Shown one piece after another: positions 1,198 to 58,145 of a DNA stretch of 63,775 bases. The notes beneath the pieces are model-generated. The model saw nothing but the letters and a program-made list of their open reading frames with translations, was not told the origin of the DNA and made no database searches. Origin of the DNA: a virus. Its lineage: Duplodnaviria; Caudoviricetes. Positions within the stretch are counted from its first letter, which is position 1. Every line of letters begins with the position of its first letter. The translations under genes were made by a program, and so were the position numbers. The stretch spans positions 1 through 63,775 of the IMG/VR virus record IMGVR_UViG_3300037515_000973; one strand, 5' to 3'.

Positions 1198-2244
1198 TTA
1201 ACTGATAGGCATTGTCATGGCCGTTTGCAATTCGGATTGAGACAGGGCACGGCGATAGACCTGGACTTCATCGATCTGGCCCTGCCACGGCATCTCGGCC
1301 CCTGGCGCATTGGCCCCCACCCAGGTTTGCTTTCCACTGGAGACGGTGAGGAGCCCCGTGTGGGCCTGACTCCCGACGAGCATGCCGTCCAGATACAAAC
1401 GCATCTGCACGCCATCATAGACCGCAGCGGCATGAAACCAAGTGTTTGCCTCAAGATTGCCACTCGATGCAATCAGGGTTGCCGTATTGCCAGCGGTCTT
1501 CAGCCGAAAGCGGAGTCGCGTTACCCCACCGCTCACAATTGTGCTAAGCATCACATCGTGATCTTGTTCGGCGCTTCCATTCGCCCGGCTCAGGATACGG
1601 CAGTCATGATTGCCGGGACAGTTGGCCAGGTTCTCTGATCGGACCCAGGCCAGCACGGTGAGGGCGGAACCGGAGACACTGAAGGTCCCGACTTCCACGC
1701 GATCATTCACTCCATCAAAGCGGAGCGCAGTGCCATATTTGCCGGTTGTCCACGTTGGGCCGTTGAGCGTGCCCGTGTTGCCATTGCCAGACGCGTCGGC
1801 GGTCGTTGTCCCCGTCCCTTCGTTCATACCGAACGCTAACACCAGATCTGGATCACTGGACGGAGGAGCACTTTCGGCGATATCACAGCTCAAAAAAGGG
1901 GGAGCCGGAGGGGGGAAGAGTGTTGCTGGTTGAGCGGTTCCGCTCGCCTCATTGGACCACGCACTCTCGCCCGCCGCATTGTACGCCAAGACACGATAGG
2001 TACACAGCACATTCCAGGGAACAGTGGTGTCACTATACGTTTGCGTCTCTGGGACAGGGATCGTGACGAGGGGGCTAAACGTGGCAGCAGGGACGCATTT
2101 TCGCTCGATACGAAACCCGTCTTCATTGTCGCTTTGGTCTTGCCACTGTAAGTCAAGCAATTGCGCGTAGACCACCACTGGCCAGCAACACAGCATCATC
2201 GTCAGGAGTCCCCTCATGACCTGGCTCCGCCACGTCCACCGCAT
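1198..2244 (-). CDS. Signal peptide + fibronectin type III + LamG/concanavalin-A-like domain protein
   Basis: WQDQSDNEDGFRIER...YRVLAYN (FN3); ALRFDGVND...WFHAAAVYDG..MRLYLDG...GQIDEVQVYRRALS (LamG-like). Confidence 0.8.
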   Translation of the reverse strand: MRWTWRSQVMRGLLTMMLCCWPVVVYAQLLDLQWQDQSDNEDGFRIERKCVPAATFSPLVTIPVPETQTYSDTTVPWNVLCTYRVLAYNAAGESAWSNEASGTAQPATLFPPPAPPFLSCDIAESAPPSSDPDLVLAFGMNEGTGTTTADASGNGNTGTLNGPTWTTGKYGTALRFDGVNDRVEVGTFSVSGSALTVLAWVRSENLANCPGNHDCRILSRANGSAEQDHDVMLSTIVSGGVTRLRFRLKTAGNTATLIASSGNLEANTWFHAAAVYDGVQMRLYLDGMLVGSQAHTGLLTVSSGKQTWVGANAPGAEMPWQGQIDEVQVYRRALSQSELQTAMTMPIS

Positions 2245-2256
2245 ACCGCACCTCCC

Positions 2257-2604
2257 TTATGGATTAAATGTCACACTACAGGATAGTGAAGCAGGTGCAC
2301 TCGGTGGCATCGTCACCGTGCTACACGTCGGCGACGGCGGGCTGGTCCCGGCCGTATTGCGCGCGAGCACACGCCAGGTATACACCGGACCCAGGGGCAA
2401 CATGGCATCCTGATAGGTCACGGTCGGCGCCGTCACGACGGCAATCTCCACAAAGGCACCCGTATCCGTTTGGCGTTCGATCACATAGTCAACGGCCTCA
2501 GGAGAGACGCCCCAGGTCATCTCATTCGTCACGGAAGACATTTGCGCGTGTGCAAGCCCTGTCAATCCGATCAGAAAGGCCAGCGTCAACAACAGTTTTT
2601 TCAT
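2257..2604 (-). CDS. Secreted FN3-domain protein
   Basis: MKKLLLTLAFLIGLTGLAHA signal peptide; YVIER, YTWRVLARN FN3 motifs. Confidence 0.7.
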   Translation of the reverse strand: MKKLLLTLAFLIGLTGLAHAQMSSVTNEMTWGVSPEAVDYVIERQTDTGAFVEIAVVTAPTVTYQDAMLPLGPVYTWRVLARNTAGTSPPSPTCSTVTMPPSAPASLSCSVTFNP

Positions 2605-3834
2605 CAATGCTTCGGCAAGGAGACCGTCGGGTTCAGCCGACGGAGGAATTGCCGTCTCCCTTCTTGCGGTATCTCCGTAAATCCTCTATACTTGAGACCA
2701 TGAAATTGGTTGCTCAACTCCAATTGCTGCCCACACCGGAGCAGCAGGCTTCTTTGCGTGAGACATTGCAGACGGCGAATGCGGCGTGCAATCGGATCTC
2801 GGACCTGGCCTGGGAGCATCAAACGTTTGGGCAGTATCGACTGCATCACTTGAGTTACCACCTGTGTCGTCAGGAATTTCCCCTGGCTGCCCAAATGGTT
2901 GTGCGCAGTATTGCCAAGGTTGCCGATGCCTACAAGCGCGACAAGAAAGTCCACCGGCGGTTTCGTCCCACAGCCGCGCAGCCCTTCGATGATCGGATCT
3001 TTCGGTTTGTGGATGATCACACCATCTCGCTCTGGACGACCGGCGGTCGGCAGAAGATGCCGTTTGTCTGCGGCACACATCAGCGCGGCCTGCTCGCCTA
3101 TCGCCAGGGGGAAGTCGATCTGTGCCTGATCCGAGGCAAATGGTACATCTTCACGGTCTGCGATGTGCCCGGCGAAGAAGAGACGGCTTGGGTGGATGCC
3201 CTCGGTGTGGACCTGGGTATTGTGAACCTGGCCGTCGATTCCGATGGGACGACCTACTCGGGAACAGCAGTGGAAGAGCAGCGCCGCACGTTTACGCACC
3301 GCCGCCGCAACCTGCAACGTAACGGCTCGCGCGCGGCGCATCGGAAACTCCAACAACTCAAAGGCAAACAAGCCCGCTACCAAAAAGACGTGAATCACTG
3401 CATTAGCAAAGCAATCGTGGCAACCGCCCAACGCACCGCACGCGCGATCGGCCTGGAAGACTTGACGGGAATTCGCGAGCGGGTTACGGCTCGGAGGCGG
3501 CAGCGGTCTCGATTGTCCAACTGGGGATTTGCGCAACTCCGTCAGTTTGTGACGTACAAAGCGATACTGGCAGGAGTGGCCCTGATCTTGGTTGATCCCC
3601 GTAACACGAGTCGAACGTGTCCCGACTGCGGCCATATCGCCAAGGCGAATCGGCGTACCCGAGACACGTTTGTCTGTCAATCGTGCGGTCTCGCTGGACC
3701 AGCCGATGATATCGCCGCACGGAATATCCGTGCGAGGGCTGTTGTCAAACAGCCGATGGTAGCCAGAACAGGGATGTAGGTTTGTTTCCATGTTTTGTGT
3801 TACAAGCCGCCTGCTTGAGCGGGCGGTATTTGAC
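2605..3834 (+). mobile_element. Non-autonomous IS200/IS605-family (IS1341-like) element
   Basis: Left-end hairpin ccgtcgg-gttcag-ccgacgg; right-end hairpin ccgcctgct..agcgggcgg followed by tatttgac; putative TAM TTCAT just 5'; no tnpA. Confidence 0.8.
2700..3779 (+). CDS. tnpB: RNA-guided endonuclease TnpB
   Basis: LQLLPTPEQ N-terminus; RuvC motifs GVDLG, GLEDL, ADDIAARNI; CPDC...CQSC zinc ribbon. Confidence 0.95.
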   Translation: MKLVAQLQLLPTPEQQASLRETLQTANAACNRISDLAWEHQTFGQYRLHHLSYHLCRQEFPLAAQMVVRSIAKVADAYKRDKKVHRRFRPTAAQPFDDRIFRFVDDHTISLWTTGGRQKMPFVCGTHQRGLLAYRQGEVDLCLIRGKWYIFTVCDVPGEEETAWVDALGVDLGIVNLAVDSDGTTYSGTAVEEQRRTFTHRRRNLQRNGSRAAHRKLQQLKGKQARYQKDVNHCISKAIVATAQRTARAIGLEDLTGIRERVTARRRQRSRLSNWGFAQLRQFVTYKAILAGVALILVDPRNTSRTCPDCGHIAKANRRTRDTFVCQSCGLAGPADDIAARNIRARAVVKQPMVARTGM

Positions 3835-4456: not shown

Positions 4457-4837
4457 TCAAAAGGGTCGGAAAGGCGCGAGCGGGTGCAGCCGTGAGCGTC
4501 TCAAAAAGGGTGGAGAAAGAGTCGGTGCGGAGCTACTGAGCGCGGTTCCGCTGGACTCATTCGACCAGGCAGAGTCACCGTCTGCATTATACGCCAGGAC
4601 ACGATAGGTACACAGCACCCCTGTTGGGGCGGTACTGTCCACATATTCTTGGAGGCCAGGCGTGTCGAGGGTAACGAGCGCACTGAAAGTGGAAGCGGGC
4701 GCGCATTTGCGTTCGATACGAAAGCCGTCTTCATTGCCTGCATCTTGGTCCCAATTGACAGAGAGTCCCTGCGCCGTCGCGTGACTCGCCGGAAAAAGAA
4801 GAAAGAAGAAAAAGCAGAGCGTAGAGAATCGGCGCAT
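4457..4837 (-). CDS. Secreted FN3-domain protein, paralogue of the N-terminus of 1198-2244
   Basis: NEDGFRIERKCAPASTFSALVT...LCTYRVLAYNADGDSAWSNESSGTA closely matches the paralogue. Confidence 0.75.
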   Translation of the reverse strand: MRRFSTLCFFFFLLFPASHATAQGLSVNWDQDAGNEDGFRIERKCAPASTFSALVTLDTPGLQEYVDSTAPTGVLCTYRVLAYNADGDSAWSNESSGTALSSSAPTLSPPFLRRSRLHPLAPFRPF

Positions 4838-7398: not shown

Positions 7399-8740
7399 GT
7401 TGGGCGCCTCCTTAGCCAGCTATCAAACGCGGAGCGCTGGCGTGCGTAGGGCTCCTAAGCGTAGGCAGCCGGAGTCTCAGGAGCCCGTTGCTCCGCCCAT
7501 TGCCGGGCGGGAGCGAGACGGCACAATCGGTGGGGGTCTTGCTGCGTTTTCGTCCCCCTGTTATGTGTGTCTTGTGCAATCGGAAATCATCCTGTCTTAC
7601 AAACTCAAGCTCTACCCGACCCGCAACAAGGCTGATTGCCTCGCGGGTTTGACGGCTCTCTTTCAACGCGCTCATTCCGATTGCACACTCGTCATGGGCC
7701 AACCGGAAGAGAGCCGACCCCTTCTCTGTCCGTCGTCCAAAGGACTCGGTGAGTTTACTGGCCGTGCCTATCGGCGGGCATACATCGACTACCGACGAAC
7801 GCTGAAAGCCAGTCGCAAAACAGGGCGTCCGTTTCACCTGCCTCGGCTGCGTGCGGAACTGATTGACAGCGCTGACTTGCAACTGCCGAAACAGGCCAAG
7901 CACTTTGACTACTGGGTGCTGATTAAGGGCACGAAAGACAAGCTGTACATCCCGGCCAAAGGACATCGGGGCTTGAACCGGACGTTGGCTTTGCCGGGCG
8001 CACAGCTGAACCTGGGAACGAAGGGCAGCGCCGAAGTGTTCCGGAAGAACGGCACGTGGTATGTCCGCGTCAACGTGAAAGTGCCGACCCCTGAAGTTGC
8101 TCACGTCACCGGCACAATCGGCATAGACATTGGTGTTCGGTGTTGTGTGGCACGCTCTGACGGCTACCGGGGGCCGGACCTGCGTCCCATACTTAAGAAG
8201 CAAAGAGACCGCCGTGCCATGCAGCAAAAGCATGGCCTTGATAAGCGATCGAATGGAACGTTCCAGAAGCAACTGCTTTGCAGAGAAGCCAGACGGGTTG
8301 TGTCCGTGGCACAGCGCACTGGTCGAGCGATAGCAGTTGAGGACCCTAAGCGACTCATCCGGTGGAAGGGTCATGCAGCGCGGTTCTTTGGGAATCGAGT
8401 AGCGTTGCTGGCGGCTATCGTAGGAGTCCCATGTGTCGTGGTCAACCCAGCCTATTCCAGCACAACCTGCCCTAAATGCGGGAAGGTCGAGCGACACATG
8501 AGACATAAAGAGACGTTGCGCTGTTGGGAGTGTGGGTACACCCAGAATGCCGACTTTGTGGCGTCTCAAAATATATGTCATTGGGGCCATGGTGTTACTG
8601 CCATTTCTCAAGGTTTACTTAGCCGGTCCCCTGGTGGGGGTGCCGTCGAGTGAGCTTCAGTTCGGTCTGCCCATTGATCAGGCGTGATGCTGTCTGCGGT
8701 AAAAATCTGAGCAACCGAATAACGGTCAAGCATGTTCAAG
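7399..8740 (+). mobile_element. Second non-autonomous TnpB element (ends uncertain by about 2 bp)
   Basis: Removing 1342 bp restores a minus-strand ORF with an RBS; right end ...gttcaag; structured flanks; no transposase. Confidence 0.7.
7574..8653 (+). CDS. tnpB: TnpB-family nuclease (divergent)
   Basis: YKLKLYPT; RuvC motifs GIDIG, IAVED, NADFVASQNI; CPKC...CWEC. Confidence 0.85.
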   Translation: MQSEIILSYKLKLYPTRNKADCLAGLTALFQRAHSDCTLVMGQPEESRPLLCPSSKGLGEFTGRAYRRAYIDYRRTLKASRKTGRPFHLPRLRAELIDSADLQLPKQAKHFDYWVLIKGTKDKLYIPAKGHRGLNRTLALPGAQLNLGTKGSAEVFRKNGTWYVRVNVKVPTPEVAHVTGTIGIDIGVRCCVARSDGYRGPDLRPILKKQRDRRAMQQKHGLDKRSNGTFQKQLLCREARRVVSVAQRTGRAIAVEDPKRLIRWKGHAARFFGNRVALLAAIVGVPCVVVNPAYSSTTCPKCGKVERHMRHKETLRCWECGYTQNADFVASQNICHWGHGVTAISQGLLSRSPGGGAVE

Positions 8741-9307: not shown

Positions 9308-9345
9308 CAAAAGCCCGGACGGTCCCCCCCGTCTGGGCTTTTTTT
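9308..9345. terminator. Bidirectional-type intrinsic terminator; related copy at about 9614-9646
   Basis: aaaagcccggacgg...ccgtctgggcttttttt. Confidence 0.6.
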
Positions 9346-9605: not shown

Positions 9606-9643
9606 CCAGTGGCAAGCCCAGACGTCTCCCCCGTCTGGGCTTT

Positions 9644-9919: not shown

Positions 9920-10177
9920 AAGTTATGTACTTTGTAGTACTACTTGGGGTACTTGGTGTACCGTTTTGGCCTCCCCCCCACTTTTTTTGTCTCACCCGGT
10001 CAAACACAGTTTCTGTCACTTTCCTAAGTGCCTGTTTTATATATAAAATAAAATGTTAAATATAGTGTATTAAAGAGGGGGGGAAAAAGAGTGCGGGGGA
10101 GGGTGGGGTACGGTACACCAGTACCCCATAAAGTACACCAAAATATGCCATAAAATACCCCAAAATATGCCAAAATA
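9920..10177. other. Candidate replication origin
   Basis: AT-rich core flanked by an inverted repeat (9946-9963 / 10111-10127) and short AAAATA-type repeats, just downstream of the replication genes. Confidence 0.45.
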
Positions 10178-11521
10178 TCATGCCGGGAAGAGCCATCCCC
10201 GGTCGTTTTGGAAGAGGACTTCCCCCTCCACTAGGCTCCCTACGGTGCGCTTGACCTCTGTATAGGTGGCCGATTTCCGCAGGTGATTTTTATGGATCAG
10301 CCTGACGCTCAGCTGCCCGGGCCGGCGTTGGATAAGGCTCAGGATCTTTTCCGTGAGATCAATCGCATATCGCTGCTGTGGTGGCACAGTGACATCCCCC
10401 CGCTGGCCCAGTTCTTGCAAATATCGCGCTGAGGTTTCGATGACCGCCCGGGCTGCGGCCACGTGTCCCTCTTCGATCTGGTCAAATTTCCCCGCCCAGG
10501 CGTACAAGAGCGCGATCTTATGGGCGTACACATGTAACCGCTCAGCCATGGGGGTTTCGTTCGCCTGAGACATGATACCGTCCTCAAAGAAGGACACCTG
10601 CCAGTGATACATGGCCTCCCAGGCGTCCGGGGTGTAGCAGTCCTTGAGGGCGTTGCGGTAGCCGAGGATCGGGGGTGGGGCGGCGGGGAACTGAATCTGC
10701 TGACTGAGGACAGTTAGATCGACCTCGGCCTGCTCCTCCTCATAGGCGCGCCACGGGACGTATGATCCGGGCAGGATCAGATACCTGTTCAGAAACCCCG
10801 AGAAAATCATCTCGTCAGTGATGTGTGCCCGGAACAGCTGGTCCGTGGTGGTGCCCAGAATGGAGAGTGTCGGGGTGGGAATACTGACATGCCCGCCGGT
10901 CCGCTCGCGATCAGAGCGGCTAATACTGTGATAGTCGGGGCAGTCGAAAATCTTATTCAGGTCTTCGCTCAGCGTGCTGAATTGGATCTTGAGATACTTC
11001 GCTAAGCTCGTCCACTCATGCAGAACCATGATCGTGGGATGGGGGGTGACCGCGAGGATTTTACCGCCTTTCTCCCGTTCAATATCGGCCAACACCGGGC
11101 CGAGGCCGGGCCCGGAGCTGACCGTGCCGACTTGCCGATACCAGGTCGGGAGCAGCTGCTCGCAGACGTCGGTACACAGCTTTTTCCCTGTGCCCGTCGG
11201 TTTGATCAAAAGACCATAGATATTGCCACAGACGCGGCCATAATAGCGGACCTCAATCTGGCGATGCGCCAGCGCCGCCAGGGCGGTGAGCGTGCCGAGC
11301 CACACCTCCCAGGAGCGCTGCCTGACAATGTCGGCCACCTCCAGAAAGACCCCTTGCCAGAGGATATCGGGACAGGGGTAGGCCGCTGCCGGCTCTTCCT
11401 CGGCGGCTTCCCGGGCCAGCTGTTCCCGGTCCCGTTGCTCCTGGTCGAGTTGTTCTTGCGCCAGCTGCTCAAGCAGCGTCCGTGGCGCCGTGTGGAGACG
11501 GGTCGCACTGACCGTTGACAT
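10178..11521 (-). CDS. DUF3987-like P-loop replication protein (putative helicase)
   Basis: LLIKPTGTGKK Walker A-like; MVLHEW Walker B-like; LSILGTTT; SGFLNRY. Confidence 0.7.
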   Translation of the reverse strand: MSTVSATRLHTAPRTLLEQLAQEQLDQEQRDREQLAREAAEEEPAAAYPCPDILWQGVFLEVADIVRQRSWEVWLGTLTALAALAHRQIEVRYYGRVCGNIYGLLIKPTGTGKKLCTDVCEQLLPTWYRQVGTVSSGPGLGPVLADIEREKGGKILAVTPHPTIMVLHEWTSLAKYLKIQFSTLSEDLNKIFDCPDYHSISRSDRERTGGHVSIPTPTLSILGTTTDQLFRAHITDEMIFSGFLNRYLILPGSYVPWRAYEEEQAEVDLTVLSQQIQFPAAPPPILGYRNALKDCYTPDAWEAMYHWQVSFFEDGIMSQANETPMAERLHVYAHKIALLYAWAGKFDQIEEGHVAAARAVIETSARYLQELGQRGDVTVPPQQRYAIDLTEKILSLIQRRPGQLSVRLIHKNHLRKSATYTEVKRTVGSLVEGEVLFQNDRGWLFPA

Positions 11522-12113
11522 GTTTTTCTCCTCTGCCAATCGCCCGCCACAATGCGTGCGCCGGTACGGGATCAGCGTCTGGACGCAAGAACACAAACGC
11601 TTCCTGCGCCTCCAGCAGAGCCGTCGTGGCCTGCATGAGCTCTTGCGCCGCCTGGGTTTTTTCGCGTGGACTAAAGGTGCTCGGGGCCAGCCTATAGAAG
11701 TGCTGTACCTGCTGCGCGTACACGAGTCGTGCGCGCGCTCCCCGGAGGATCTGATAGGCCCGCATCCATTGCTGCTCGCGCCAGCGGATAAACGCCTGCT
11801 GAAGCTGGCGGGTGCGGCGTCGGACGGCGCGGTCCTGAGGCTCCGCCTCTGAGAGGCAGCGCCTCTGCGGTCCGATGTCCTTCCCGACGCGGGCCGCCGC
11901 CTCGGCAAAGGACAGACCGTCGAGTTCTCGGAGCAGGGTAATCGCGTCCCCGGATTTCCCGCACCCAAAACAGTGGAACACGTTTTTTTCGGAGTTGACG
12001 GAAAAGCTGGGTGTCTTCTCGACATGAAACGGACAGCAACCCCACCACTCCGCACCGTGCTGGGACAGCGTCGTATGCCGCGCGGCAATGTCTCTGATCA
12101 GGTCTTCCGTCAT
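11469..12113 (-). CDS. CHC2 zinc-finger (DnaG N-terminal-like) protein
   Basis: CPFHVEKTPSFSVN...FHCFGCGKSGDAI. Confidence 0.9.
   Translation of the reverse strand: MTEDLIRDIAARHTTLSQHGAEWWGCCPFHVEKTPSFSVNSEKNVFHCFGCGKSGDAITLLRELDGLSFAEAAARVGKDIGPQRRCLSEAEPQDRAVRRRTRQLQQAFIRWREQQWMRAYQILRGARARLVYAQQVQHFYRLAPSTFSPREKTQAAQELMQATTALLEAQEAFVFLRPDADPVPAHALWRAIGRGEKHVNGQCDPSPHGATDAA
11837..11865 (+). repeat. Dispersed 29-bp double-hairpin family A (other copies at 14913, 15705, 25812, 28268, 53930; variants at 13549, 24998)
   Basis: GAGGC-TCC-GCCTC-TGA-GAGGC-AG(C/A)-GCCTC. Confidence 0.9.
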
Positions 12114-12490
12114 CAGACTTCCCACCCTGGAATAAGCCGCGCCACGCCCTGCCGCTGGATCTCGCGGAAAAAGGCGCCCGTGATAATTTCCAAGCATTCG
12201 TTAGGACAATACTTTCGGAATCGCTTGAGTTTGGTTTTGCTCGCGCGATCGAGATAGCCTTTGACCTCGACCCACCGATCTTCGCCAAGGATATAAAAAT
12301 CTGGTCGATAGGTCCGGTTCCCCCGCTCGACGGGAAACCAAAACTCACACGGCTCGTAGAGGTAGCGCCGCTCTGTAAAGAGGAGGAATCGGGCGTAATT
12401 GGCTTCCCACTTCGAGCGGCAGGCATGCCCGAGGTCTGCCCGATACCCTTGCTGTGAATGCCCCGCCCAGTGTGGATTGCGATTTCCCAT
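12113..12490 (-). CDS. PD-(D/E)XK nuclease (T7 endonuclease I-like)
   Basis: RSKWEA...YEP...YRPDF...VEVKG. Confidence 0.8.
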   Translation of the reverse strand: MGNRNPHWAGHSQQGYRADLGHACRSKWEANYARFLLFTERRYLYEPCEFWFPVERGNRTYRPDFYILGEDRWVEVKGYLDRASKTKLKRFRKYCPNECLEIITGAFFREIQRQGVARLIPGWEV

Positions 12491-12831
12491 GTCAATCTTT
12501 CCTCCACCGGCCCCACCGCCTATTGAGTCGGCACCCGATTTCCCAGCCAATGAGTACGGCGAAAAAGGTATAGAGCAGGACAATGCCTACGATCAGAAAA
12601 TTAGGTGTGCGATACATGAGAGATGTCCCTCGGCTGCCGTGGGCAGACATGGCGCGTCCCGCCTTGGTGCAGGCGCTCGGCAACGAGCTTGGGACCGACC
12701 GGCGCCACCACGTAGACGAGGACGTTGGGATCAATCAATATCTGCTGGCCGTGGCGCGTCTCCGCGATCGCCACCCGCTGGGAGCAGTGAGGACAGAAGC
12801 TCAAATAGTTCCGTTGCACGGCGTTTCCTCC

Positions 12832-13610: not shown

Positions 13611-14294
13611 TTATGATCCTCCTTTCGTCTGGGTGTCCTCGGTCTCACGGCGTGCCTCATGACCTAGCTGCGCCACGTCCAAGACGGCTTCCAGTATCTC
13701 CTGCACGTCGTAGCCGTTCTTCAGCATCCGCCGGATGGCGCCATACACGTCTCCTAAGGGGATACTGATCGATCGCTTCTTAAACCCGGCTGCGATCGCC
13801 GCCGCATACGGGGACAGCTCCCCCGCTTCAACGCGATCGAACAGATCCGGCCGATCTCGCAGCAGCCGGCGGCAGGTATAGTCGGGGTCATTGCCTCCGA
13901 CGGTCAAGTTGACAATGTCAACTTGATCTTGAGACTTCCGATTACCTCCATGCCCTGCCAACGGCCCTGCCTGTTTCGCCTGCGCGGCCAGGCTCAGCAC
14001 GTCCGGGAGCGGAATAACCCATTCCGGTTTATTCAGTTCCAACCACTTGCGCGCAATTGCAATCTCATCTGGAACGAGATCGAACCCATCACGGATCATG
14101 GCGACATACGACGCAAAGCCTAAGTCCTGCCAGACCTGTTCCGCTTCCTCGCAAAACTCGAGAAGCTTACTGCAATCGTAATTGAGGTTTCTCGCTAGGA
14201 AGAGGCGCTTTTGCTGGAGCAACGCCCCCCATTCAGTGCGCGGGGTATCCCGAAAGAGATACGTCGGCTCCAACGGACCGGAGTCAATTCTCAT
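13611..14294 (-). CDS. Hypothetical DNA-binding protein
   Basis: HGGNRKS motif and RLLRDRPDLFDRVEAGELSPYAAA, typical of ParB-associated phage proteins. Confidence 0.6.
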   Translation of the reverse strand: MRIDSGPLEPTYLFRDTPRTEWGALLQQKRLFLARNLNYDCSKLLEFCEEAEQVWQDLGFASYVAMIRDGFDLVPDEIAIARKWLELNKPEWVIPLPDVLSLAAQAKQAGPLAGHGGNRKSQDQVDIVNLTVGGNDPDYTCRRLLRDRPDLFDRVEAGELSPYAAAIAAGFKKRSISIPLGDVYGAIRRMLKNGYDVQEILEAVLDVAQLGHEARRETEDTQTKGGS

Positions 14295-14627: not shown

Positions 14628-15772
14628 CGGGCAGCCTCCTCTTCTTTTTCTGGGTGCAGCACCATGAAGGCGGTGGCTTCGGTGATCCAGCTCATGATCT
14701 CCTGATATTGCTGCGGGTTGAGGTCCTTGCTCGAGGTGAGCCCATACGCTTCTAAGATGTGCGCCTTCAGATCGGCCTCGCTATACGGACTCTTGCCCAG
14801 GTGGGCAAAGAGCGCCCGTCGTTTGCCCACCTCAGGACTCTGCTCGACGGGACGTGGCGCAGGGCCTTTTGCGTCAGGCAAACGGCCAGGCAAACGGCCA
14901 GCCAGGTCGTGCGAGGCTCCGCCTCTGAGAGGCAGAGCCTCCGGGGGGACGTAAGGGGAGACGTAAGGGGCGGCGGCACGGGGCGGGGCGGCGGCACGGG
15001 GCGGGGCGGCGACGTCCTCTTCTTCCTCTTCTTCCTGCAACTGAAAGAGCGCAGACGCCCCCGTCCGCATCCGCACCGCAGCCAGAAACGCGCGTTTCTC
15101 GGCGATTTTGAGCACGGTATTATACACATCCGCCAGGTCGGGGTTCTCGATTTTGCCCCGGGGTTGGCGTTCAATCGTCTGCTCGCCCGCCGGAAACGTG
15201 GCGCCACAACCGCCGAGCTTGCGCCAGCAATACCAGCCTTCCGCCTTGTTTTTACTTTGCCGCACCGTCTCTTTATCGCACGCGGGACACACGAGTTCGG
15301 CATACCTGTAGCGGTACTTCGTTTCCATGGTCGCGCACGAGCCATGCGCGCGCCCCACCTCCTGCCCGGTGGTCAACGAGGTGAGGACACATGTGGACGT
15401 GATATTCCGGTGTCCGCCACCGAGGTCTTCAATGTCCGGCGGGAGCAACGCGGGCGCCAGTTGAAAGGCCAAACACAGTACTTCTCCCCCCGGTTGGCGC
15501 AGTGTTTTGGCGGTGGTGCCCGGCTGCTCGCCATAATGGAGGCCTTCGCGCATAACCTCGCGCACGATCTGTTCGACCATCGCCACCCGTTGCACGATGT
15601 CGGCGACGGACAGCACCGCGAGGGGTGCTGGACGTGGACGTGGCGCAGCCAGGTCGTGCGGAGGCACGGGGGCGGGGGTAGTATTCTGGGTGGGGACAAC
15701 GGCTGAGGCTCCGCCTCTGAGAGGCAGCGCCTCGTGCGTTTCACTCTCGTACGTCATCAGTGTCTCAGTCAT
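14624..15772 (-). CDS. Zinc-ribbon phage protein, possibly a recombination/ssDNA-annealing protein
   Basis: EGLHYG..PGT..KTL..PGGE core; CPAC...C....GGC; NTVLKIAEKRAF; position in the recombination module. Confidence 0.55.
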   Translation of the reverse strand: MTETLMTYESETHEALPLRGGASAVVPTQNTTPAPVPPHDLAAPRPRPAPLAVLSVADIVQRVAMVEQIVREVMREGLHYGEQPGTTAKTLRQPGGEVLCLAFQLAPALLPPDIEDLGGGHRNITSTCVLTSLTTGQEVGRAHGSCATMETKYRYRYAELVCPACDKETVRQSKNKAEGWYCWRKLGGCGATFPAGEQTIERQPRGKIENPDLADVYNTVLKIAEKRAFLAAVRMRTGASALFQLQEEEEEEDVAAPPRAAAPPRAAAPYVSPYVPPEALPLRGGASHDLAGRLPGRLPDAKGPAPRPVEQSPEVGKRRALFAHLGKSPYSEADLKAHILEAYGLTSSKDLNPQQYQEIMSWITEATAFMVLHPEKEEEAAR

Positions 15773-17324: not shown

Positions 17325-17378
17325 GCGACTCTCCTATATATTAAAGGTGTAAACGCGATCGAGAACATCGGGTAAAGA

Positions 17379-17606: not shown

Positions 17607-17619
17607 TCCTTTGAGATGA

Positions 17620-17865: not shown

Positions 17866-17878
17866 GTCGGTATTAGTA

Positions 17879-17922: not shown

Positions 17923-17936
17923 GAGGAATAATTCTT

Positions 17937-18404: not shown

Positions 18405-18426
18405 ACACAAAGAGTGACGACGCCAC

Positions 18427-25559: not shown

Positions 25560-25952
25560 GATATCTTTTGATTGTACCCACAATAGCTCATCTTGTCAAG
25601 ATCTATTGTGGGTACACTAACTAGATCACAAAACAAGGAGACACGCATGAGAAAAAATACAGGATTAAAATTGGCGCACGAAAAAGGAATGCATCGTCTA
25701 CTCAAGGCGCTCGGATTTACGGCGGATTCCATCCGACGGAATACCTTTCTGTACGAGACAAAAGAAGGGGATATCGGATTTTACTTTCAGAGCGAAGGCG
25801 TGACTTTTCCTGAGGCTCCGCCTCTGAGAGGCAGCGCCTCTGAAGATTTTGCCAACGACATGGGGAGCATCTTGGCTCCAGAGTGGGGGAACAGCCACTT
25901 TGATAGCTTGCGATACAAGATGGAATGCTAGTTCACAACATAGGAGAACATC

Positions 25953-27090: not shown

Positions 27091-27117
27091 TGGACGTGGC
27101 GTAGCCAGGTCATGCGG
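27091..27117 (+). repeat. Dispersed ~27-bp hairpin family B (other copies at 2215, 13658, 14850/14899 split, 15635, 28122, 57542)
   Basis: TGGACGTGGC-GNA-GCCAGGTC(A/G)TGCGG. Confidence 0.9.
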
Positions 27118-27137: not shown

Positions 27138-30100
27138 ATGGAAGCACAGCGACGGTATCAACGCGACTTTGAGACGATTGACGATTTGGACGATTTCGTT
27201 TTGTTCCAGCAACAGGAAAACGGGCTCACATTTCATTGGGATAGAGTCAGAAAAACGGCCTGGATTATCACCGACGAAGAAACCGAGGCCAGCCTCTACG
27301 AGGAGGAAATTCATCAGGACGACGCCTAACTCATCCAGCAGCCCCCGCTGCGGCGGGGCCACACACAGGAGCAGGAGCATGCAGATTGTTATTTTGCAAG
27401 AAACGGGCCAGATTGATATCCCCGCCACCCGTGCAGCCTACCTGGCGCACGGTCAACCGCGCAGGCGCCTGCTCGCGCACCTGCTGGCCAAAATCCGGGC
27501 GGTGTGTCCGGATCTGGATCAAGAGGAGGTCAAGACACAGACCCGCCTGGCAGCCAACGCGATCTTTGTGGCGACGCACGAACGGCCGTTACCCCTCAGG
27601 CACAAAGGCTTGCGCCTGCGCTAACATCTCACCCCCGCTCCGGCGGGGCTTACCAGAGGAGAACAAAAAATGGAAATCTACACGATCGCGTATGACGGCA
27701 TCTTGCTTTGGGCAGGTCCGGCGTGCAACGCAGCGCATGCCCTCAATATACATGCGCGCGACATTGGCTATGGCACATTCCGTGACTTAGCTCTCCTGGC
27801 AGAGCCACCCTACGACGCCGACACGACGACGGAAGCAGCGCATCTCGCAGAGGTGCGAAAACGGTATGCTGTGGAAATGAGCAGCCAGCCGTCAGGAGAG
27901 GAACAATGAAACAACAGTCTATGAGACGACATTTAAATTTCTCCGATAAACTTGACGTCATCTATGCGGCCTCTATCCTCGGCCGCGCCTTAAAGAAACA
28001 ACAAGACCGATCACACGATCCTTGCTGGAGTGTGTATTTCCAGCACCTCCAGAACGCGCTGGAGGCGCTGGATCAGGTCTGGCCGCACGACGACGCAGAA
28101 CCCGAGTAACCCAGCCGCGTCTGACGTGACGCAGTCAGGTCATGCGGTACGGCTTCTCAGGACGGACACGGGCGACGGATTCCAACAGGGCACACTCCAG
28201 GAGCCGGAGCGATCGATCACTGGAGACGCGGAGTTGGTGCAACCCCGGAACGGCAGTTCCCCGCCCTGAGGCTCTGCCTCTCAGAGGCGGAGCCTCAAAG
28301 GAGTAACGAAAGTGGAAAATCTCACGATCACAGGTCACCTTTTTGAAATGCCGACCGATGGGGGATATGTCTATGAGGTCTTGACCTCAGGACAGAGACG
28401 GCAGATATGCGAGGGAGGTGGACTGATGGGGAGTACACTCAGGGCCACGCCAGAGACTTTTAAAGTGATCTGCCAGAAGTGGCTGAGACAGCGCAATAGA
28501 CTATAAGAGTACACCATCCACCCCCCGCCCCCTTCGAGGCGGGCACAGGAGTAGATCATGACGATGCTACAAATAAAAAGCCCGAGCGGGTTCTACGTCA
28601 CCGCTGTGCGCGGTGACGGCACGGGAGATCTCAAGCACTTTTGGCTGCTCAAGAGTGCGTTGGGATGGCTTATTACGCAGCATGCCGTCCACGCGATTCT
28701 GAGCGTGGACGGCTACGCCAACGTATCGATCTAAAAAAAAATGAAAGCAGAACATATCGAATTACAATTTTCTCTAGCGATTGACAACAACCATGTGATC
28801 GGGAGCTATACCCCAGGGATGGGGTATAGCACGGTCCTCACCATCGGGGGAGAGGCGATGCACGATGATGGAGAGGGGGAGCTCTCCGCCCCCATCCCCC
28901 AGAGGGGGGAGACCTTTGATTTGGCTCTCCCCAGTGGGTGTTTCCAGGGGGCAGTCATCTACCGCTCTCACCTATCCCCTCTTCTCTACAAGGTCACGGT
29001 CCGTGGGGTATGGTCGGGCACATACGGCGGCCTAGTCGGTGGGCTGAGTGCCTTCGGTGCGTTTGAGCTGCTCTCTTCAAATTTTATCCTCACCACCTCC
29101 TGGAGTGGCCACCCGATCACATGGCGCCAGTATCAGGCCCTCCGCGCCATCCGTAATAATTTTTTGGATGGGGAGGGAACAGCCGCCGTGGCCGCCATGG
29201 AAAAAAAAGAAAGATATTGGAAGGAGCAGGCAGATGAGATACACGGACAAGGAGATGGAGCAGGCCCTGTGTCGGTGGAGACAGAAAAATGTTGACGTAC
29301 GCGATTTACGCATGGCTCTGATGGCCTTATCGCTCTATGCCACGGCGGAGGAACTCATAGCCATTTTCCCAGGAACACACCATGACCCCCCCACACGGAA
29401 GCAGCTGCAAAGTGAGTTTCAAAATGTTTAATAAAGACAAGAGAATCGGCCGCTATCTGGTTGATATTGGCATTATCATAGGCATCGCTCTGTTGTTCGG
29501 GGGATGTGCCCATCATCCCCTGTTTGCCAACTATCAACCGCCTCCTTACCGGCACTCCGAATACGATTACTATCAGACACGACGACACCAAGAGCGACAA
29601 ACAGACTTACTCAAAACGTTGAGGCGCCAACAAAAATATGTGGATTTTCGGCGGGGGATATTGCAGCGCCAACACCTGCGGAACTCATTGAAGAAACCCT
29701 ATACTCACGTACCGAGGAGAAGATAATGACTGAGTGGATGCTCGAATACCTCAATACTGACCTTGTCATTACGGGCCCTGGGCAACTCCAAATCGTGCTG
29801 CAAGAATTTGATCCTGACCGTCTGCGATCGGACCACATTCTGCCCCCGGAGGTGCTGGGCGACTTGCAGCAGGGTGGCTGGTCCTATGAGCTAGAGCCAG
29901 GCGTCACACTCCAGCTCATTTCCACACGAAGCCGGCATCATCCGGGATCTGCACTCCACGTGTTGCATGTGGGCAGGCAGGTCAGTTGGACGCTGCCGGC
30001 TGAATTTGGCGCACAGCTGGGCCGATTAAAAACCTACCCTTGAGTAGCGACCACCATTGAGACTGAAGCACGAGCAGGAGCAGGAGCACAGAAAGGAGAA

Positions 30101-53716: not shown

Positions 53717-53911
53717 TTACCGTTTTCCTGAGGCCATCAGTACCCGCTCAAAGTCACACGTCAGTTGAAGCAGAGAGATCTCTTCTTTGTTTTTCGGATC
53801 AAAGCGAACGACCAGTTTCATGCCTCGTAGGGTCGGATCGAGATTGAGCGTGTCCTTCCGGAGTTCGAGTTCGTGCCTGATCTGTTCCAGTGCGCGTTCA
53901 ATCCGTCCCAC
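53717..53911 (-). CDS. Small hypothetical protein
   Basis: Abuts the stop of the gp7-like gene. Confidence 0.45.
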   Translation of the reverse strand: MGRIERALEQIRHELELRKDTLNLDPTLRGMKLVVRFDPKNKEEISLLQLTCDFERVLMASGKR

Positions 53912-55120
53912 TTAGTCCGCCTTTTTTTTGCGGCTCTGCCGCTCAGAGGCGGAGCCTCTCAGGACACGGCCTGTTGTTGGATTCAGGGTAATACCGAGTG
54001 CAGCAAATACCGCTCTTTCTTTTTTGATTAATTCAGCAAGGGGAAGCACCTCATGTGCATTATTCACAAATTGGTCGATCTTGACCTGCCCGTTCCGAAA
54101 TAAACGCCCCCGTGTGGCGCCGAGCACCTCATCTTGTATCGCTGCCGACTGTTGTTTCAGCCATTGGGGATACGTCAGAGAAGCCGGGACTTGGCCGTTC
54201 ATACTGGCGCGCGTCCCCTCGGGAAGGTTGGGCAAGTCGAGCCCTAAAGCTTTCCAACTCCTCAACCAAGGAGTGATACTACAGCGTCATCTTCCGTGAA
54301 TAGGGGGCCACGGATGAGATGTGCCTGTTTTCCAATTTTTCTTGTCCAGTGACATGCACCGGACACAGGTCCGCAGATCCAACGTCGCAATCCAGCCTTC
54401 CCCTTGGAGAATATCCTCATTTTCTTCCAACATAAGACGCCGGGCTTGCGTCCCGATATGGATCGTCGCCGTGCGGACCAGTGTTTCTGCATCTCGGCGC
54501 GACATCTGCAAAATCCCATCCATAAATTTATTGGCCCGTGTCCCCCGAATGCGCCGCATAATTTGTTCATTCGTCTCGCCTTGCACTATGCCAATGCCGA
54601 TCTGTTGCGTGAGCCGTCGCTGGGTCGTGGTGGTCAGATTTTCAAACCAATCCCGCAGCGGAAATCCTTCCATCGGAATCGTCAGTGCCGCCCGGATTTG
54701 TGGGACACTCGGGATCACGGTTTCAATTAAAATGCCTCGTGTGGCTTCCTGGATGACCGCCGCTTGCCAGTGCACTTCGTGTTCGGCTAACGCGCTCAAG
54801 GCGTCCTGTATCTGCGTAAAGAGTGCCTCATGTCCTGTTGTGAGCATAGTATGGAGTGCCATTTCCAGTTCGTGCAGGCGCCGCGTCGTCACCGGTCCAC
54901 GGTCAAAGCCACGTTCGGCAATACGGGCGAGGCGGGTTTCTATTTTCTGCAACAGGTCAGGATAGACGTGCATCTCTAAAAATTCGAGCGCGGCGCCCGT
55001 CTGCTGATTCTGCACACGGAGCTGGTAGATGAGATGTCTGATCGTTCGGTCGAGCAGGATCTCATTTGCCGTCTGTGGCGTGACCCGTAGCCTGGGATCA
55101 AGACGTGGCAAGGTACTCAC
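53912..55120 (-). CDS. SPP1 gp7/MuF-like head morphogenesis protein with in-frame TGA at 54287-54289
   Basis: AETLVRTA; WIATLDLRTCVRC; PPIHGR*RCSITPWLRSW...RASMNGQVP..LTY.QWL all in one frame. Confidence 0.85.
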
Positions 55121-56576: not shown

Positions 56577-56600
56577 GGTATGTCTCTCCTTCTCAGCCAG

Positions 56601-58145
56601 CTACCACCCTCTCACACGATGCCCACCCCCCGTGGGAGGAGCAGGAATAAGGTCGCGCCAAAACGCCATGACGACCGCATCCCCGTCATCTGGGGAGCGG
56701 CCCAGCCGATGGACTAACGTTTGTTCGCCCTCCTCGAACACCGTCCGCTTGCTTTCGACTTGAATCTTCCCGCCAGACACAAATCGATAACGATAGCCGG
56801 TCAAATCGCCGGCCAGCATGTCTTCGGGCGGCAGCGCAATGTTTTCTTCATATTGCGGGTCCAGCAGCTCTCGGAGATGCCAGAGCGCCGCACTCCTGGT
56901 ATTCACAAAAGCAAACTCCCCTGTCCGGTCCTGAAACTCTGTCTTCGATCCAGGATTAAAGGCGAATGTCCGCTTGGCATACTGTTCCCGCACGCGATCA
57001 TATACGCCAGAGCCCACACCAGGAAGATCAATCATGGCGTGCATGGTCGGATGCGCGCTGAGCATCGCCGTGATCCTGCCTGCCGTATCCATGGTGTCGG
57101 CAATCTGCGTGCGGGTCAGTGTGAGGACCGTGTCGTTCGTGCGCGGCGCCAAAACAGTCTTATCGCCCCCGCGGCCCACATCGACACCGACTTGTATTAA
57201 GATTGGGGGCGTCTCAGCAAACACACTTTGTCGTTCATGCCACCGCGCTTGCGCCGCTTCGATCCAACTGAGCGGAATCAGCGAGTCTGACGACGTTTCG
57301 GCAAACTCGCCGAGGACGTGATTTTGATACAACTCATTGGTTTCGGTCCACTGGCGCTTGCGTGCATCGGCCCAGGATTGCGCCATCTGTCCCGCCCGCA
57401 CGACCTCGGCCATGCTCACATGTTGCGTACTCCAGTCCTCAAAGCCGGGCGCATGGCGGCAGATATCGTAAAACCGACCACTGGTATGCCCTGGAATAGA
57501 GCTTGCGAACCAATACGCCTGTGGCCCACTCGTCGCCTCTGCATGACCTGGCTGCGCCACGTCCGTGGCATTCGAGGCTGCTCCTTCGACGCTATCCCAA
57601 CTGGGCGACGGGATGATTTTTGATTCATCAAAAATGTAGAGGACGTGTGTTGCGTGTGCACCTTCCATGGACTCATTATCGTCTGAAGCCACCGCAAAGG
57701 CATCGCCATCCGGAGGGAGGTGTAAACTTAAAGTGAGCAATTCTTTTTTGGCGAGTAAAGGGCCGCGTGGCACAGCACCATTCCACTTGATCCGCCGTTG
57801 CCACTTATGCACTTCCGGCCACAAGAATCGTTGCAGCTGGCGCCAATAGTTTGCAGTCGTGACGCATTTCCAGTCTATTTCGGCCAGGGACCGCGTAATG
57901 GCAAAATGCAAGAGGAGCAATGCCGCGACCGTGGTCTTGCCTGTCCCACGAGGACCACGAAAGGCGTGTCTATGGTGGAGCGCCAGTTGGCGCATGGCTT
58001 CCGCTTGATAGTCGATCAGGTGATGTCCCGCAGGCCACTCGATGCACTCCTGCGCCCACCGATCAGGATGATGAAAGTAGCGATCATAAAATTCCTGGAG
58101 CTGTTGCTTGCGCGATGGTGTCGGGTGCGTGCCGAGCAGTCCCAT
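56601..58145 (-). CDS. terL: Terminase large subunit
   Basis: GPRGTGKT Walker A; YIFDES Walker B; GVDVGRGGDKT and SPDDGDA nuclease motifs. Confidence 0.92.
   Translation of the reverse strand: MGLLGTHPTPSRKQQLQEFYDRYFHHPDRWAQECIEWPAGHHLIDYQAEAMRQLALHHRHAFRGPRGTGKTTVAALLLLHFAITRSLAEIDWKCVTTANYWRQLQRFLWPEVHKWQRRIKWNGAVPRGPLLAKKELLTLSLHLPPDGDAFAVASDDNESMEGAHATHVLYIFDESKIIPSPSWDSVEGAASNATDVAQPGHAEATSGPQAYWFASSIPGHTSGRFYDICRHAPGFEDWSTQHVSMAEVVRAGQMAQSWADARKRQWTETNELYQNHVLGEFAETSSDSLIPLSWIEAAQARWHERQSVFAETPPILIQVGVDVGRGGDKTVLAPRTNDTVLTLTRTQIADTMDTAGRITAMLSAHPTMHAMIDLPGVGSGVYDRVREQYAKRTFAFNPGSKTEFQDRTGEFAFVNTRSAALWHLRELLDPQYEENIALPPEDMLAGDLTGYRYRFVSGGKIQVESKRTVFEEGEQTLVHRLGRSPDDGDAVVMAFWRDLIPAPPTGGGHRVRGW

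What the first reader, a model, noticed from the sequence alone, without database searches (positions are those of the whole stretch)
2215..57564. Dispersed hairpin family B: GNA triloop with a compensatory base change
Seen: seven copies in both orientations (2215-2237, 13658-13680, split 14850-14912, 15635-15661, 27091-27117, 28122-28147, 57542-57564). Each folds GAC(G)TGGC-loop-GCCA(G)GTC. The loop varies as GCA, GGA or GTA but is always GNA, and the 28122 copy covaries (TGAC/GTCA). Copies sit in several reading frames inside genes (TWRSQVM, DVAQLGH, HDLAAPRP) and between genes, so selection appears to act on structure rather than peptide. Established: C-GNA-G minihairpins are very stable in ssDNA and are recognised in systems such as N4 promoters. 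Inference: a REP/RPE-like micro-element or a structured protein-binding signal that I do not recognise as described.
Basis: partly seen in the sequence, partly recalled or inferred. Interest (0 to 1): 0.78.

Follow-up and report, generated by a model that had tools for sequence, protein, structure and literature searches.

The report
Tiny hairpin repeats colonising a phage
A 27-base hairpin-forming DNA motif sits at seven places in a temperate phage genome, some of them in frame inside essential genes, and it looks like a very small selfish mobile element rather than a gene-control signal.

Summary
The window is a whole 63.8-kb virus record, a temperate siphovirus. It holds six near-identical copies of GGACGTGGCGNAGCCAGGTCRTG (0 expected by chance) and a seventh copy split by a 39-nt nested hairpin.

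Where homologues allow a test, the motif is an insertion. In the large terminase, the only internal window-specific block against 17 homologues is the nine codons (27 nt) that the motif encodes. The nearest viral relative (67% identity) lacks exactly those nine codons. Both copies in a Zn-ribbon protein lie in linker insertions that its closest homologues lack. A fourth copy forms a C-terminal extension. A second hairpin family (A, six copies) behaves the same way.

The motif is not a sigma-70-type promoter or an intrinsic terminator, and it matches no Rfam family. It is not an end of the two TnpB insertion sequences in the genome. It is not a multi-copy repeat in any of 185,579 reference genomes, and it is absent from 85 related viral loci.

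Best reading (0.55): a REP/RPE-like, non-autonomous 27-nt palindromic micro-element, tolerated in loops, linkers and intergenic gaps. What mobilises it is unknown. Selection on the hairpin structure is suggested but not statistically shown. No mobility was seen directly.

The parts
2215..2237 (-). B copy 1 (loop GGA). It lies between the stop of a small secreted-protein gene (2257-2604, -) and the Laminin_G_3 tail-fibre-like gene. If that gene starts at ATG 2244, the 27-nt unit 2212-2238 encodes WTWRSQVMR in the n-region of its signal peptide.
   Evidence: Pfam
13658..13680 (-). B copy 2 (C-to-T gives a G-T wobble). It encodes DVAQLGH at the start of a 21-aa C-terminal extension of the 227-aa protein 13611-14294.
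14850..14912 (+). B copy 3, split in its loop by a 39-nt insert. The insert forms its own imperfect hairpin (14863-14887) and contains a 12-nt tandem duplication. The copy is antisense in the C-terminal linker of the Zn-ribbon protein (14624-15772/15889, -) and abuts an A copy.
15636..15658 (+). B copy 4. It is antisense in the N-terminal linker of the same protein (HDLAAPRP), 43 nt from an A copy.
27092..27114 (+). B copy 5 (loop GTA). It is intergenic, 30 nt after the stop of the HTH protein gene 26150-27061 and 23 nt before ATG 27138.
28122..28144 (+). B copy 6, with the compensatory TGAC/GTCA change. It is intergenic, 12 nt after the stop of 27906-28109, whose 3' end is paralogous to that of 26150-27061.
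   Evidence: (D14)
57542..57564 (-). B copy 7 (exact consensus). It lies inside the large terminase gene 56601-58226. The 27-nt unit encodes DVAQPGHAE (aa 222-230), an insertion absent from all homologues examined.
11833..11867 (.). Family A hairpin copy (TGAGGCTCCGCCTCTGAGAGGCAGCGCCTC). A is a companion family of about 29-31 nt imperfect palindromes.
   Evidence: (D4)
14909..14943 (.). Family A copy directly abutting B copy 3.
15701..15735 (.). Family A copy 43 nt from B copy 4 (encodes EALPLRGGAS).
25808..25842 (.). Family A copy, intergenic, downstream of the HNH endonuclease gene 25083-25559.
28264..28298 (.). Family A copy about 120 nt from B copy 6. It is followed by AAGGAG and a GTG start.
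53926..53960 (.). Family A copy (74% identical to the reference copy) at the boundary of genes 53912-54265 and 53717-53911.

Best explanation
Family B is a 27-nt imperfect-palindrome micro-element, TGGACGTGGC-GNA-GCCAGGTCRTGMGG. Its core is a 7-bp hairpin with a conserved G.G mismatch and a C-GNA-G triloop. It has been copied by insertion into at least six independent sites of one temperate siphovirus genome.

Its length is a multiple of three and it is open in five of six frames. Copies therefore survive inside genes wherever nine extra residues are harmless: a surface loop of the terminase, disordered linkers, a signal-peptide n-region and a C-terminal tail. Copies also sit in short intergenic gaps. 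A second family (A) and a hairpin nested in the loop of one B copy show that this genome has been colonised repeatedly by such elements.

What is shown: the family exists, and the copies are insertions relative to homologues.

What is inferred: B is non-autonomous mobile DNA that moves as a folded single strand and is mobilised in trans. The likeliest agent is a host enzyme that acts on ssDNA hairpins, of the HUH/Y1 type that moves IS200/IS605 and REP elements. The same genome carries two TnpB-only IS200/IS605-type elements that also need such an enzyme in trans. Whether the phage now uses the hairpins for anything is open.
For: 1. Terminase.
- Against 17 homologues (picked from the 120 listed, of 1283 with E<=1e-20), the only internal block where the window has residues and at least 90% of the others have gaps is aa 222-230, DVAQPGHAE. 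That is the 27 nt of B.
- The nearest IMG/VR relative, L086 (67% aa identity), lacks exactly these nine codons, in frame.
- In an AlphaFold model these residues lie in a coil between helix 207-218 and strand 236-243. Block pLDDT is 57 there, against 75 and 80 in the blocks on either side.

2. Zn-ribbon protein P0001 (12 homologues picked from the 120 listed, of 172).
- The N-terminal A+B composite falls in a window-unique block, aa 57-78.
- The C-terminal A+B composite is a gap of about 33 aa in the closest homologue P0123 (67%) and about 30 aa in P0124 (60%). None of the 12 carries the encoded peptides.

3. The 227-aa protein (16 homologues picked from the 150 listed). None has the B-encoded peptide, and 12 of 16 end within about 6 residues of where B begins.

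4. The in-genome paralogue of the tail-fibre-like gene starts MRRFSTL. The B-bearing copy starts MR-WTWRSQVMR-GLL, and the extra nine residues are the B unit.

5. One B copy has a 39-nt hairpin nested in its loop.

6. Family A (6 copies) also sits in linkers and at gene boundaries.

7. No regulatory signature. No promoter-like or terminator-like site coincides with a copy. Rfam gives nothing at gathering threshold or at E<=1.

8. The family is specific to this lineage. 0 of 85 related viral loci (934 kb) score above 18.2 bits, and L086 has no comparable family.

9. Two TnpB genes are present and no Y1 transposase.
Against: - No copy was seen to move. Laid contigs from four independent metagenome runs showed no empty-site allele, but the data were fragmentary.
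- No target-site duplication or conserved target could be defined from seven copies.
- No copy was found outside this genome, so no source population or host family is known.
- No enzyme for it is encoded in the window.
- The empty-site comparisons are with homologues of 68% identity or less, in regions that vary in length anyway.
- The 27092 and 28122 copies probably arose by segmental duplication.
- All three stem substitutions keep the pairing, and 5 of 7 copies are in the sense orientation near gene boundaries. Both facts would also fit a selected function.
Confidence: 0.55

Rival explanations
1. B is a functional recognition site of the phage. It could be a binding site for a phage regulator (a 'stoperator'-like repressor site of a temperate phage). 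It could instead be an ssDNA hairpin signal, for example for priming or replication, recognised by the phage primase-helicase or the Zn-ribbon ssDNA-binding-like protein.
For: - The phage is temperate (integrase).
- Copies are highly conserved, and all three stem changes keep the pairing.
- 5 of 7 copies are in the sense orientation, and 4 lie at or next to gene ends.
- Two copies flank the conserved core of the Zn-ribbon protein, whose homologues are labelled ssDNA-binding Zn-ribbon in some sources.
Against: - Functional sites usually evolve within existing sequence. Here the copies are 27-nt insertions into a terminase loop and protein linkers.
- Two copies are antisense inside a gene.
- One copy is split by 39 nt in its loop.
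- Relatives lack the motif entirely.
- The orientation bias of 5 of 7 is not significant.
Confidence: 0.2
2. B (with A) is a short 'linker' or boundary sequence that promotes homologous recombination between modules. It would be kept because it shuffles genes and domains between phages.
For: - Copies sit at gene and domain boundaries, and A+B composites flank the conserved core of P0001.
- One Logan contig in run X4 joins two A copies (11834 to 15703) across 31 shared letters.
Against: - A 23-31-nt repeat is short for efficient homologous recombination.
- The X4 joint is what a k=31 assembler produces at a 31-nt repeat, and the join would be out of frame.
- No relative carries the motif, so there are no partners for exchange.
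- The terminase-loop copy is not at a module boundary.
Confidence: 0.08
3. B is the end hairpin, or a PATE-like derivative, of the IS200/IS605-type TnpB element next to copy 1.
For: - A TnpB gene (2700-3779+) lies a few hundred bases from copy 1.
- IS200/IS605 ends are imperfect hairpins.
- A B-like 14-nt palindrome lies 23 nt beyond the right end.
Against: - Comparison with three related TnpB loci places the left-end hairpin at 2624-2650 (CCGTCGG..CCGACGGAGGAAT) and the right end at ..GGTATTTGAC, 3834. Neither resembles B.
- A real gene (2257-2604) separates the element from copy 1.
- The half-site GCCAGGTC occurs 10 times in the window against 2.7 expected. Five of those are outside B copies, so the one beyond the right end is not significant on its own.
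- The second TnpB element has no B-like ends.
Confidence: 0.04
4. B is an N4-type hairpin promoter for a virion or phage-encoded single-subunit RNA polymerase.
For: A 3-nt loop and a short stem resemble N4 early promoters. That resemblance is recalled knowledge, not tested here.
Against: - No polymerase candidate exists. The 2520-aa protein is a tape measure.
- PF00940 finds nothing, though its control genomes could not ring.
- The copies are not clustered at a genome end.
- Two copies are antisense inside a gene, and one is in a terminase loop.
Confidence: 0.02

Closest known systems
REP / REPIN elements mobilised by RAYT (Y1 HUH) transposases, including intragenic REPs (Di Nocera et al. 2013, PMC3733652: abstract, section 6 and passages read)
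   Same: Both are short (20-40 nt) imperfect palindromes with unpaired flanks, dispersed in both orientations and mostly at gene ends. Some REPs lie inside ORFs, where they add residues in loops or linkers.
   Different: B has no GTAG or CGTC unpaired tag. Its stem is 3+4 bp with a mismatch and a 3-nt loop; CGTC families have 8-9 bp stems and 4-5 nt loops. B forms no head-to-head dimers, and no RAYT is in the record. It has only 7 copies and sits in a phage genome, not a chromosome.
Rickettsia palindromic elements (RPE), selfish DNA inserted in frame in protein-coding genes (recalled; RPE-4 and RPE-6 are mentioned in PMC3733652)
   Same: Both are palindromic repeats inserted in frame into functional genes, including essential ones, at positions tolerated by the protein.
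   Different: Classical RPE-1 is about 100-150 bp, whereas B is 27 nt. RPEs belong to a different host clade and to chromosomes, not a virus.
Small dispersed repeats (SDR) of Nostoc and other cyanobacteria, 'very small mobile repeated elements' of 21-27 nt (Elhai et al. 2008). The paper is not held in the library. Only its citation was seen, in PMC3116915; the details are recalled.
   Same: The size range (21-27 nt), the hairpin potential, the nesting of one element in another, and an unknown mobilising enzyme all match.
   Different: The sequences differ. SDRs occur in hundreds of copies in bacterial chromosomes, mostly non-coding. B has 7 copies in a phage, and 5 of them are inside ORFs.
IS200/IS605 subterminal hairpins and PATE-like derivatives
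   Same: Both are imperfect hairpins read as ssDNA. Two TnpB-only members of this family are in the same genome.
   Different: The end hairpins of these elements have other sequences. B carries no TnpB or omega-RNA and is far shorter than a PATE.
N4 virion-RNA-polymerase hairpin promoters and d(GCGNAGC) DNA mini-hairpins (recalled)
   Same: The centre of B, GCGNAGC, is the stable C-GNA-G triloop motif. N4 promoters have a 5-7 bp stem and a 3-nt loop.
   Different: No polymerase gene is present, and the positions and orientations do not fit promoters.
Stoperators and start-associated sequences of mycobacteriophages (recalled)
   Same: Both are dispersed, conserved short sites in a temperate phage genome.
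   Different: Stoperators are asymmetric 13-14 bp duplex sites in intergenic gaps, oriented with transcription. B is a palindrome present as insertions inside genes, and two copies are antisense.

Membership tests
REP/REPIN-RAYT | Unpaired GTAG (or CGTC) tetranucleotide tag at one end of the palindrome | tested here: not met
   The alignment of six copies shows no GTAG. The only CGTC (reverse strand..CACGTCC) is part of the paired stem, not an unpaired tag. The definition is taken from PMC3733652, section 6.
REP/REPIN-RAYT | Associated RAYT / Y1 HUH transposase gene | tested here: not met
   PF01797 gave 0 matches at E<=1 in the 63.8-kb record, while the controls rang in 10 of 14 genomes. The host genome is unknown, so an enzyme acting in trans is not excluded.
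REP/REPIN-RAYT | High-copy family in the host chromosome, often as inverted dimers | tested here: not met
   An exact-core scan of 185,579 species genomes gave 50 loci with one match each. Two of them lie in one Streptomyces chromosome, in homologous gene contexts. There are no head-to-head B pairs in the window.
RPE-like in-frame palindromic insertions | Palindromic repeat present as an in-frame insertion relative to orthologues | tested here: met
   Terminase: 9 codons absent in 17 of 17 homologues and in L086. P0001: both composites absent in the closest homologues.
RPE-like in-frame palindromic insertions | Insertion at a structurally tolerated (surface or loop) position | tested here: met
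   In the AlphaFold model, aa 219-228 are coil and block pLDDT is 57, between well-predicted elements. The P0001 copies lie in low-complexity linkers.
Very small mobile repeats (SDR-type) | Unit of about 21-27 nt with inverted-repeat ends, with evidence of insertion and nesting | tested here: met
   A 27-nt unit and a 39-nt hairpin nested in a B loop. The family definition is recalled; the paper was not readable.
Very small mobile repeats (SDR-type) | Filled/empty polymorphism between closely related genomes | tested here: inconclusive
   Contigs from four runs laid on 11000-29000 showed no empty allele, but cover was fragmentary. No relative closer than 67% was available.
IS200/IS605 ends / PATE | Hairpin identical or similar to the LE/RE hairpins of a resident IS200/IS605 element | tested here: not met
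   The LE hairpin at 2624-2650 and the RE ending at 3834, defined against three related loci, do not resemble B.
N4-type hairpin promoter | A cognate single-subunit RNA polymerase encoded by the phage | tested here: not met
   PF00940 found nothing, although its control could not ring. The only giant protein is a tape measure.
Intrinsic terminator | GC-rich hairpin followed by a T-run | tested here: not met
   No terminator-like site coincides with a B copy in 11500-29500. The flanks read have no T-run.

The most novel reading that the evidence does not exclude
This phage lineage carries its own families of ultra-small (27-31 nt) hairpin transposons. They propagate within a viral genome and insert in frame even into the terminase. 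They move as ssDNA hairpins, using a host HUH-type enzyme or an enzyme not yet recognised. They would be the smallest mobile elements documented in a virus. They would also give a natural system for asking how REP/SDR-type micro-elements move, since every copy sits in a 64-kb genome with identifiable empty sites.
Probability: 0.3. Interest if true: 0.7.

Novelty: new variant of a known kind. Interest (0 to 1): 0.5.

Why it matters
Small palindromic repeats (REP, RPE, SDR) are known from bacterial chromosomes, but how the smallest ones move is still unclear. Phage genomes are usually thought too compact to carry them.

Here two families, with nesting and in-frame insertion into an essential packaging enzyme, sit in one small genome. 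If they are mobile, this gives a tractable system: 13 copies, known empty sites in relatives, and the phage present in several sediment and soil metagenomes. That would allow a search for the mobilising enzyme and a measurement of the fitness cost of such insertions.

It also matters for annotation. The 9-33 residue segments these elements add to phage proteins are not part of the ancestral fold.

Tried and rejected
- Host REP. An exact-core scan of genome contigs gave 50 single hits. This is roughly the chance level by my own estimate for a 13-G/C, 18-base word in GC-rich genomes, plus a few homologous Streptomyces genes. The viral scan gave 1 hit and the metagenome scan 20. None shares the flanks or is related to the window by tblastx.
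- Family A. It gave 0 hits in viral contigs, 0 of 4 genomes reached through loci, and 0 of 401 genomes of the phylum of a Chloroflexi MAG. That phylum was chosen only because a few terminase and TnpB homologues carry Chloroflexota labels. The host remains unknown.
- Link to TnpB. Rejected after defining the IS ends. A second TnpB element likewise has no B-like ends.
- Other candidate mobilising enzymes. Reverse transcriptase and IS110 transposase gave no match in the window.
- Half-site enrichment. Outside B copies it is weak: 6 and 5 solitary arms against about 3 expected for each.
- Target-site duplication. Flanks were inspected by eye and no consistent repeat was found.
- Population test. 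Runs X3-X6 were laid on 11000-29000. The contigs were short. One X3 contig covers copy 28122 unchanged. No empty allele and no informative joint at a B copy was seen, which is inconclusive.
- GC skew follows transcription and shows no origin that would explain the orientations of the copies. The orientations fit two arcs on a circle, but by my count 44 of 128 random patterns would do so as well.
- Closer relatives. The major capsid protein found none in IMG/VR. The terminase alignment found L086 as the nearest, at 67%.
- Literature. Five searches found no description of such elements in phage genomes. Elhai 2008 is not held. Supplementary tables of PMC3733652, which list intragenic REPs, were not opened.


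Full report
**What the window is.** The window is a complete IMG/VR virus record of 63,775 bp, estimated 92% complete, with 56.6% G+C.
- PHROG and Pfam scans identify an integrase (18427-19500+) and a 2520-aa tape measure (39109-46671-).
- They also identify a major head protein (51721-52719-), a portal (55128-56576-) and a large terminase (56601-58226-).
- Replication-related genes include a DUF3987 primase/helicase (10178-12088-), a ParB-like protein (16494-17324-) and an HNH endonuclease (25083-25559+).
- There are two TnpB (IS605 OrfB) genes, at 2700-3779+ and about 7580-8653+.
- This is therefore a temperate siphovirus. There are no tRNAs and no Rfam family at gathering score.
- The record is found in sediment and soil metagenome runs.

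- The 23-nt consensus GGACGTGGCGCAGCCAGGTCATG, with up to 3 mismatches, hits six sites: 2215-, 13658-, 15636+, 27092+, 28122+ and 57542-. None of 100 dinucleotide shuffles gave a match.
- The seventh, split copy at 14850-14912 carries both arms around a 39-nt insert. That insert is itself an imperfect hairpin with a 12-nt tandem duplication.
- A covariance model of the six copies scores them at 45.7-50.7 bits and nothing else in the window above 14.3 bits.
- Loops are GCA x4, GGA and GTA, and the G.G mismatch is invariant. Of the seven substitutions among the six copies, two are in the loop centre, two are in the flanks, and three are in the stem. All three stem changes keep the pairing: one G-T wobble and one G-C to A-T double change.

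**Limits on the 'structure is selected' claim.**
- With a single compensatory event, 88 of 500 column shuffles reach the same covariation.
- The nearest-neighbour ssDNA energy is only -6 kcal/mol, with z from -0.4 to -2.8. That model does not capture the special stability of C-GNA-G triloops, which I recall from the literature.
- The near-identity of the copies can equally be explained by recent copying.
- 'Several frames' means three frames. The two sense-strand intragenic copies share one frame (DVAQLGH and DVAQPGH), and the two antisense copies share another (HDLAAPRP). Copy 1 reads TWRSQVM if the gene starts at ATG 2244, which has a good GGGAGG ribosome site.
- The unit is open in five of its six frames, by direct reading.

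**The key result: the copies are insertions.**
- *Terminase.* I aligned the window protein with 17 homologues chosen from the 120 listed, including all three above 60% identity. The only internal block where the window has residues and at least 90% of the others have gaps is aa 222-230, DVAQPGHAE. That block is GAC GTG GCG CAG CCA GGT CAT GCA GAG, the B unit, 27 nt.
- The nearest viral relative retrievable as DNA, L086 (67% aa, 68% nt identity over the gene), reads NAW-GPDGRE-AYW where the window reads NAT-[DVAQPGHAE]-ATSGPQ-AYW. This is a clean nine-codon difference.
- In an AlphaFold model built from the alignment (mean pLDDT 76), the segment is coil between helix 207-218 and strand 236-243, with locally lower confidence. 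That is what one expects of a tolerated loop insertion.
- *Zn-ribbon protein.* This is 14624-15889, with a probable start at 15772. Both B copies lie next to copies of a second hairpin family (A), in the two low-complexity linkers that flank the conserved core.
- The closest homologues, P0123 (67%) and P0124 (60%), have gaps of about 25 aa (N-linker) and about 30-33 aa (C-linker) there. None of 12 homologues carries the encoded peptides.
- *The 227-aa protein.* B begins where 12 of 16 homologues end, and it opens a 21-residue tail that none of the 16 shares.
- *The tail-fibre-like gene.* Its in-genome paralogue starts MRRFSTL, while the B-bearing gene starts MR-WTWRSQVMR-GLL. Again the difference is nine residues, the 27-nt unit. 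This comparison is weak because the signal peptides are divergent.
- *The two intergenic copies* follow paralogous gene 3' ends that are 89% identical over 54 nt. They may therefore count as one insertion event.

**What it is not.**
- It is not an end of the neighbouring TnpB element. Comparison with three related TnpB loci places the left-end hairpin at 2624-2650 and the right end at 3834 (..GGTATTTGAC), with sequences unlike B. A real secreted-protein gene (2257-2604) lies between the element and copy 1.
- There is no Y1/RAYT transposase, reverse transcriptase or IS110 transposase in the window.
- It is not a sigma-70-type promoter or an intrinsic terminator, and it matches no Rfam family even at E<=1.
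- It is not an N4-type promoter in any testable sense, because there is no polymerase candidate.
- It is not a catalogued host repeat. The exact core occurs only as single, unrelated hits in 185,579 reference genomes, in IMG/VR and in JGI metagenomes.
- It is not shared with relatives. None of 85 related viral loci (934 kb) has a hit above 18.2 bits. L086 shows no comparable dispersed hairpin family in 18 kb.

**Interpretation.**
- The simplest account is a very small non-autonomous palindromic element, functionally like REP, RPE or SDR repeats, that has been copied around this phage lineage.
- Its 27-nt length and five open frames let it persist in coding DNA wherever nine residues are tolerated.
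- Three observations point to repeated colonisation by hairpin DNA rather than to a designed set of sites: the companion family A (six copies at 11833, 14909, 15701, 25808, 28264 and 53926), the nested hairpin, and the close A-B juxtapositions.
- The mobilising activity is unknown. I infer, but have not shown, an ssDNA-hairpin enzyme supplied in trans.
- This is plausible because two TnpB-only IS200/IS605 elements have entered the same genome. By established knowledge of that family, they depend on a Y1 TnpA that is absent from the phage.
- Intragenic REPs and RPEs in bacteria are documented precedents (PMC3733652: abstract, section 6 and passages read). Elements of 21-27 nt are a precedent from cyanobacteria (Elhai 2008; only its citation was seen in PMC3116915, and the rest is recalled).

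**What speaks against it.**
- Mobility was not observed, and laid metagenome contigs gave no empty-site allele.
- No target duplication emerged, and no copy exists outside this genome in the collections searched.
- The comparisons rest on homologues of 68% identity or less.
- The retained pairing, and the position of several copies at gene ends, leave room for a function (rival 1, 0.2). A recombination-linker role (0.08) and the IS-end (0.04) and N4-promoter (0.02) readings are less likely.

**Verdict.** I rate it a new variant of a known kind of element, in an unusual place (a phage, in frame in the terminase), with interest 0.5.

Noticed in passing
window 11833-11867, 14909-14943, 15701-15735, 25808-25842, 28264-28298, 53926-53960: A second dispersed hairpin family (A): TGAGGCTCCGCCTCTGAGAGGCAG[A/C]GCCTC, a 13-bp stem with one or two mismatches and a triloop. 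Three copies lie within 0-120 nt of B copies. In the Zn-ribbon protein both copies encode EALPLRGGAS and are absent from homologues.
   Followed up: partly
window 14863-14887: A single-copy imperfect hairpin, GGCCTTTTGCGTCAGGCAAACGGCC, followed by a 12-nt tandem duplication. It is nested in the loop of B copy 3, and the 39-nt insert is in frame.
   Followed up: partly
window ~2610-3834 and ~7400-8700: Two TnpB-only IS200/IS605-type elements on the + strand, among minus-strand genes. The first has its left-end hairpin at 2624-2650 and its right end at ..GGTATTTGAC, 3834, so the omega-RNA guide would start at 3835. No TnpA is in the record. The ORF 2268-3779 is an artefactual N-terminal extension of TnpB, which starts at 2700.
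   Followed up: partly
window 16843-16870: A perfect 28-nt palindrome, TCCATACTATCCACGTGGATAGTATGGA, inside the ParB-like gene 16494-17324. It is a candidate parS-type site.
   Followed up: no
window 13549-13577: A perfect 13-bp-stem hairpin, GGACCTCTGGTCC-TCA-GGACCAGAGGTCC, in the gap downstream of the 227-aa gene, about 80 nt from B copy 2.
   Followed up: no
window 10126-10179: Three tandem 22-nt units, CCATAAAGTACACCAAAATATG, at the 3' side of the primase/helicase gene. They are iteron-like and could mark a replication origin.
   Followed up: no
window 19741-19780: A tandem 10-nt repeat, CACCCACACG (3-4 units), about 250 nt downstream of the integrase gene. It may lie in the attP region.
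   Followed up: no
window 11834 / 15703 (run X4): One Logan contig joins two A copies across 31 shared letters, skipping 3868 nt. This is either a k=31 assembly artefact or a recombinant deletion. The join would be out of frame.
   Followed up: no
window 20760-20807 and 21444-21491; 29220-29278 and 59093-59151; 1934-2128 and 4542-4736: Other dispersed direct repeats. There is an exact 48-nt pair 684 nt apart, and a 59-nt pair (92% identical) 30 kb apart that includes a ribosome site and a gene start. Paralogous N-terminal regions of two secreted FN3-like tail proteins also repeat.
   Followed up: no
window 1-576 and 63274-63775: The record ends share 276-nt repeat units (68-81% identical), and an ORF is open at both ends. 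A repetitive tail-fibre-like gene apparently runs across the record's ends, which fits a circularly permuted or circular genome.
   Followed up: no
window 9309-9342 and 9614-9642: Two related strong hairpins (AAAAGCCCGGACGG..CCGTCTGGGCTTTT and AAGCCCAGACG..CGTCTGGGCTT) flanked by A and T runs. They look like bidirectional terminators around small genes.
   Followed up: no
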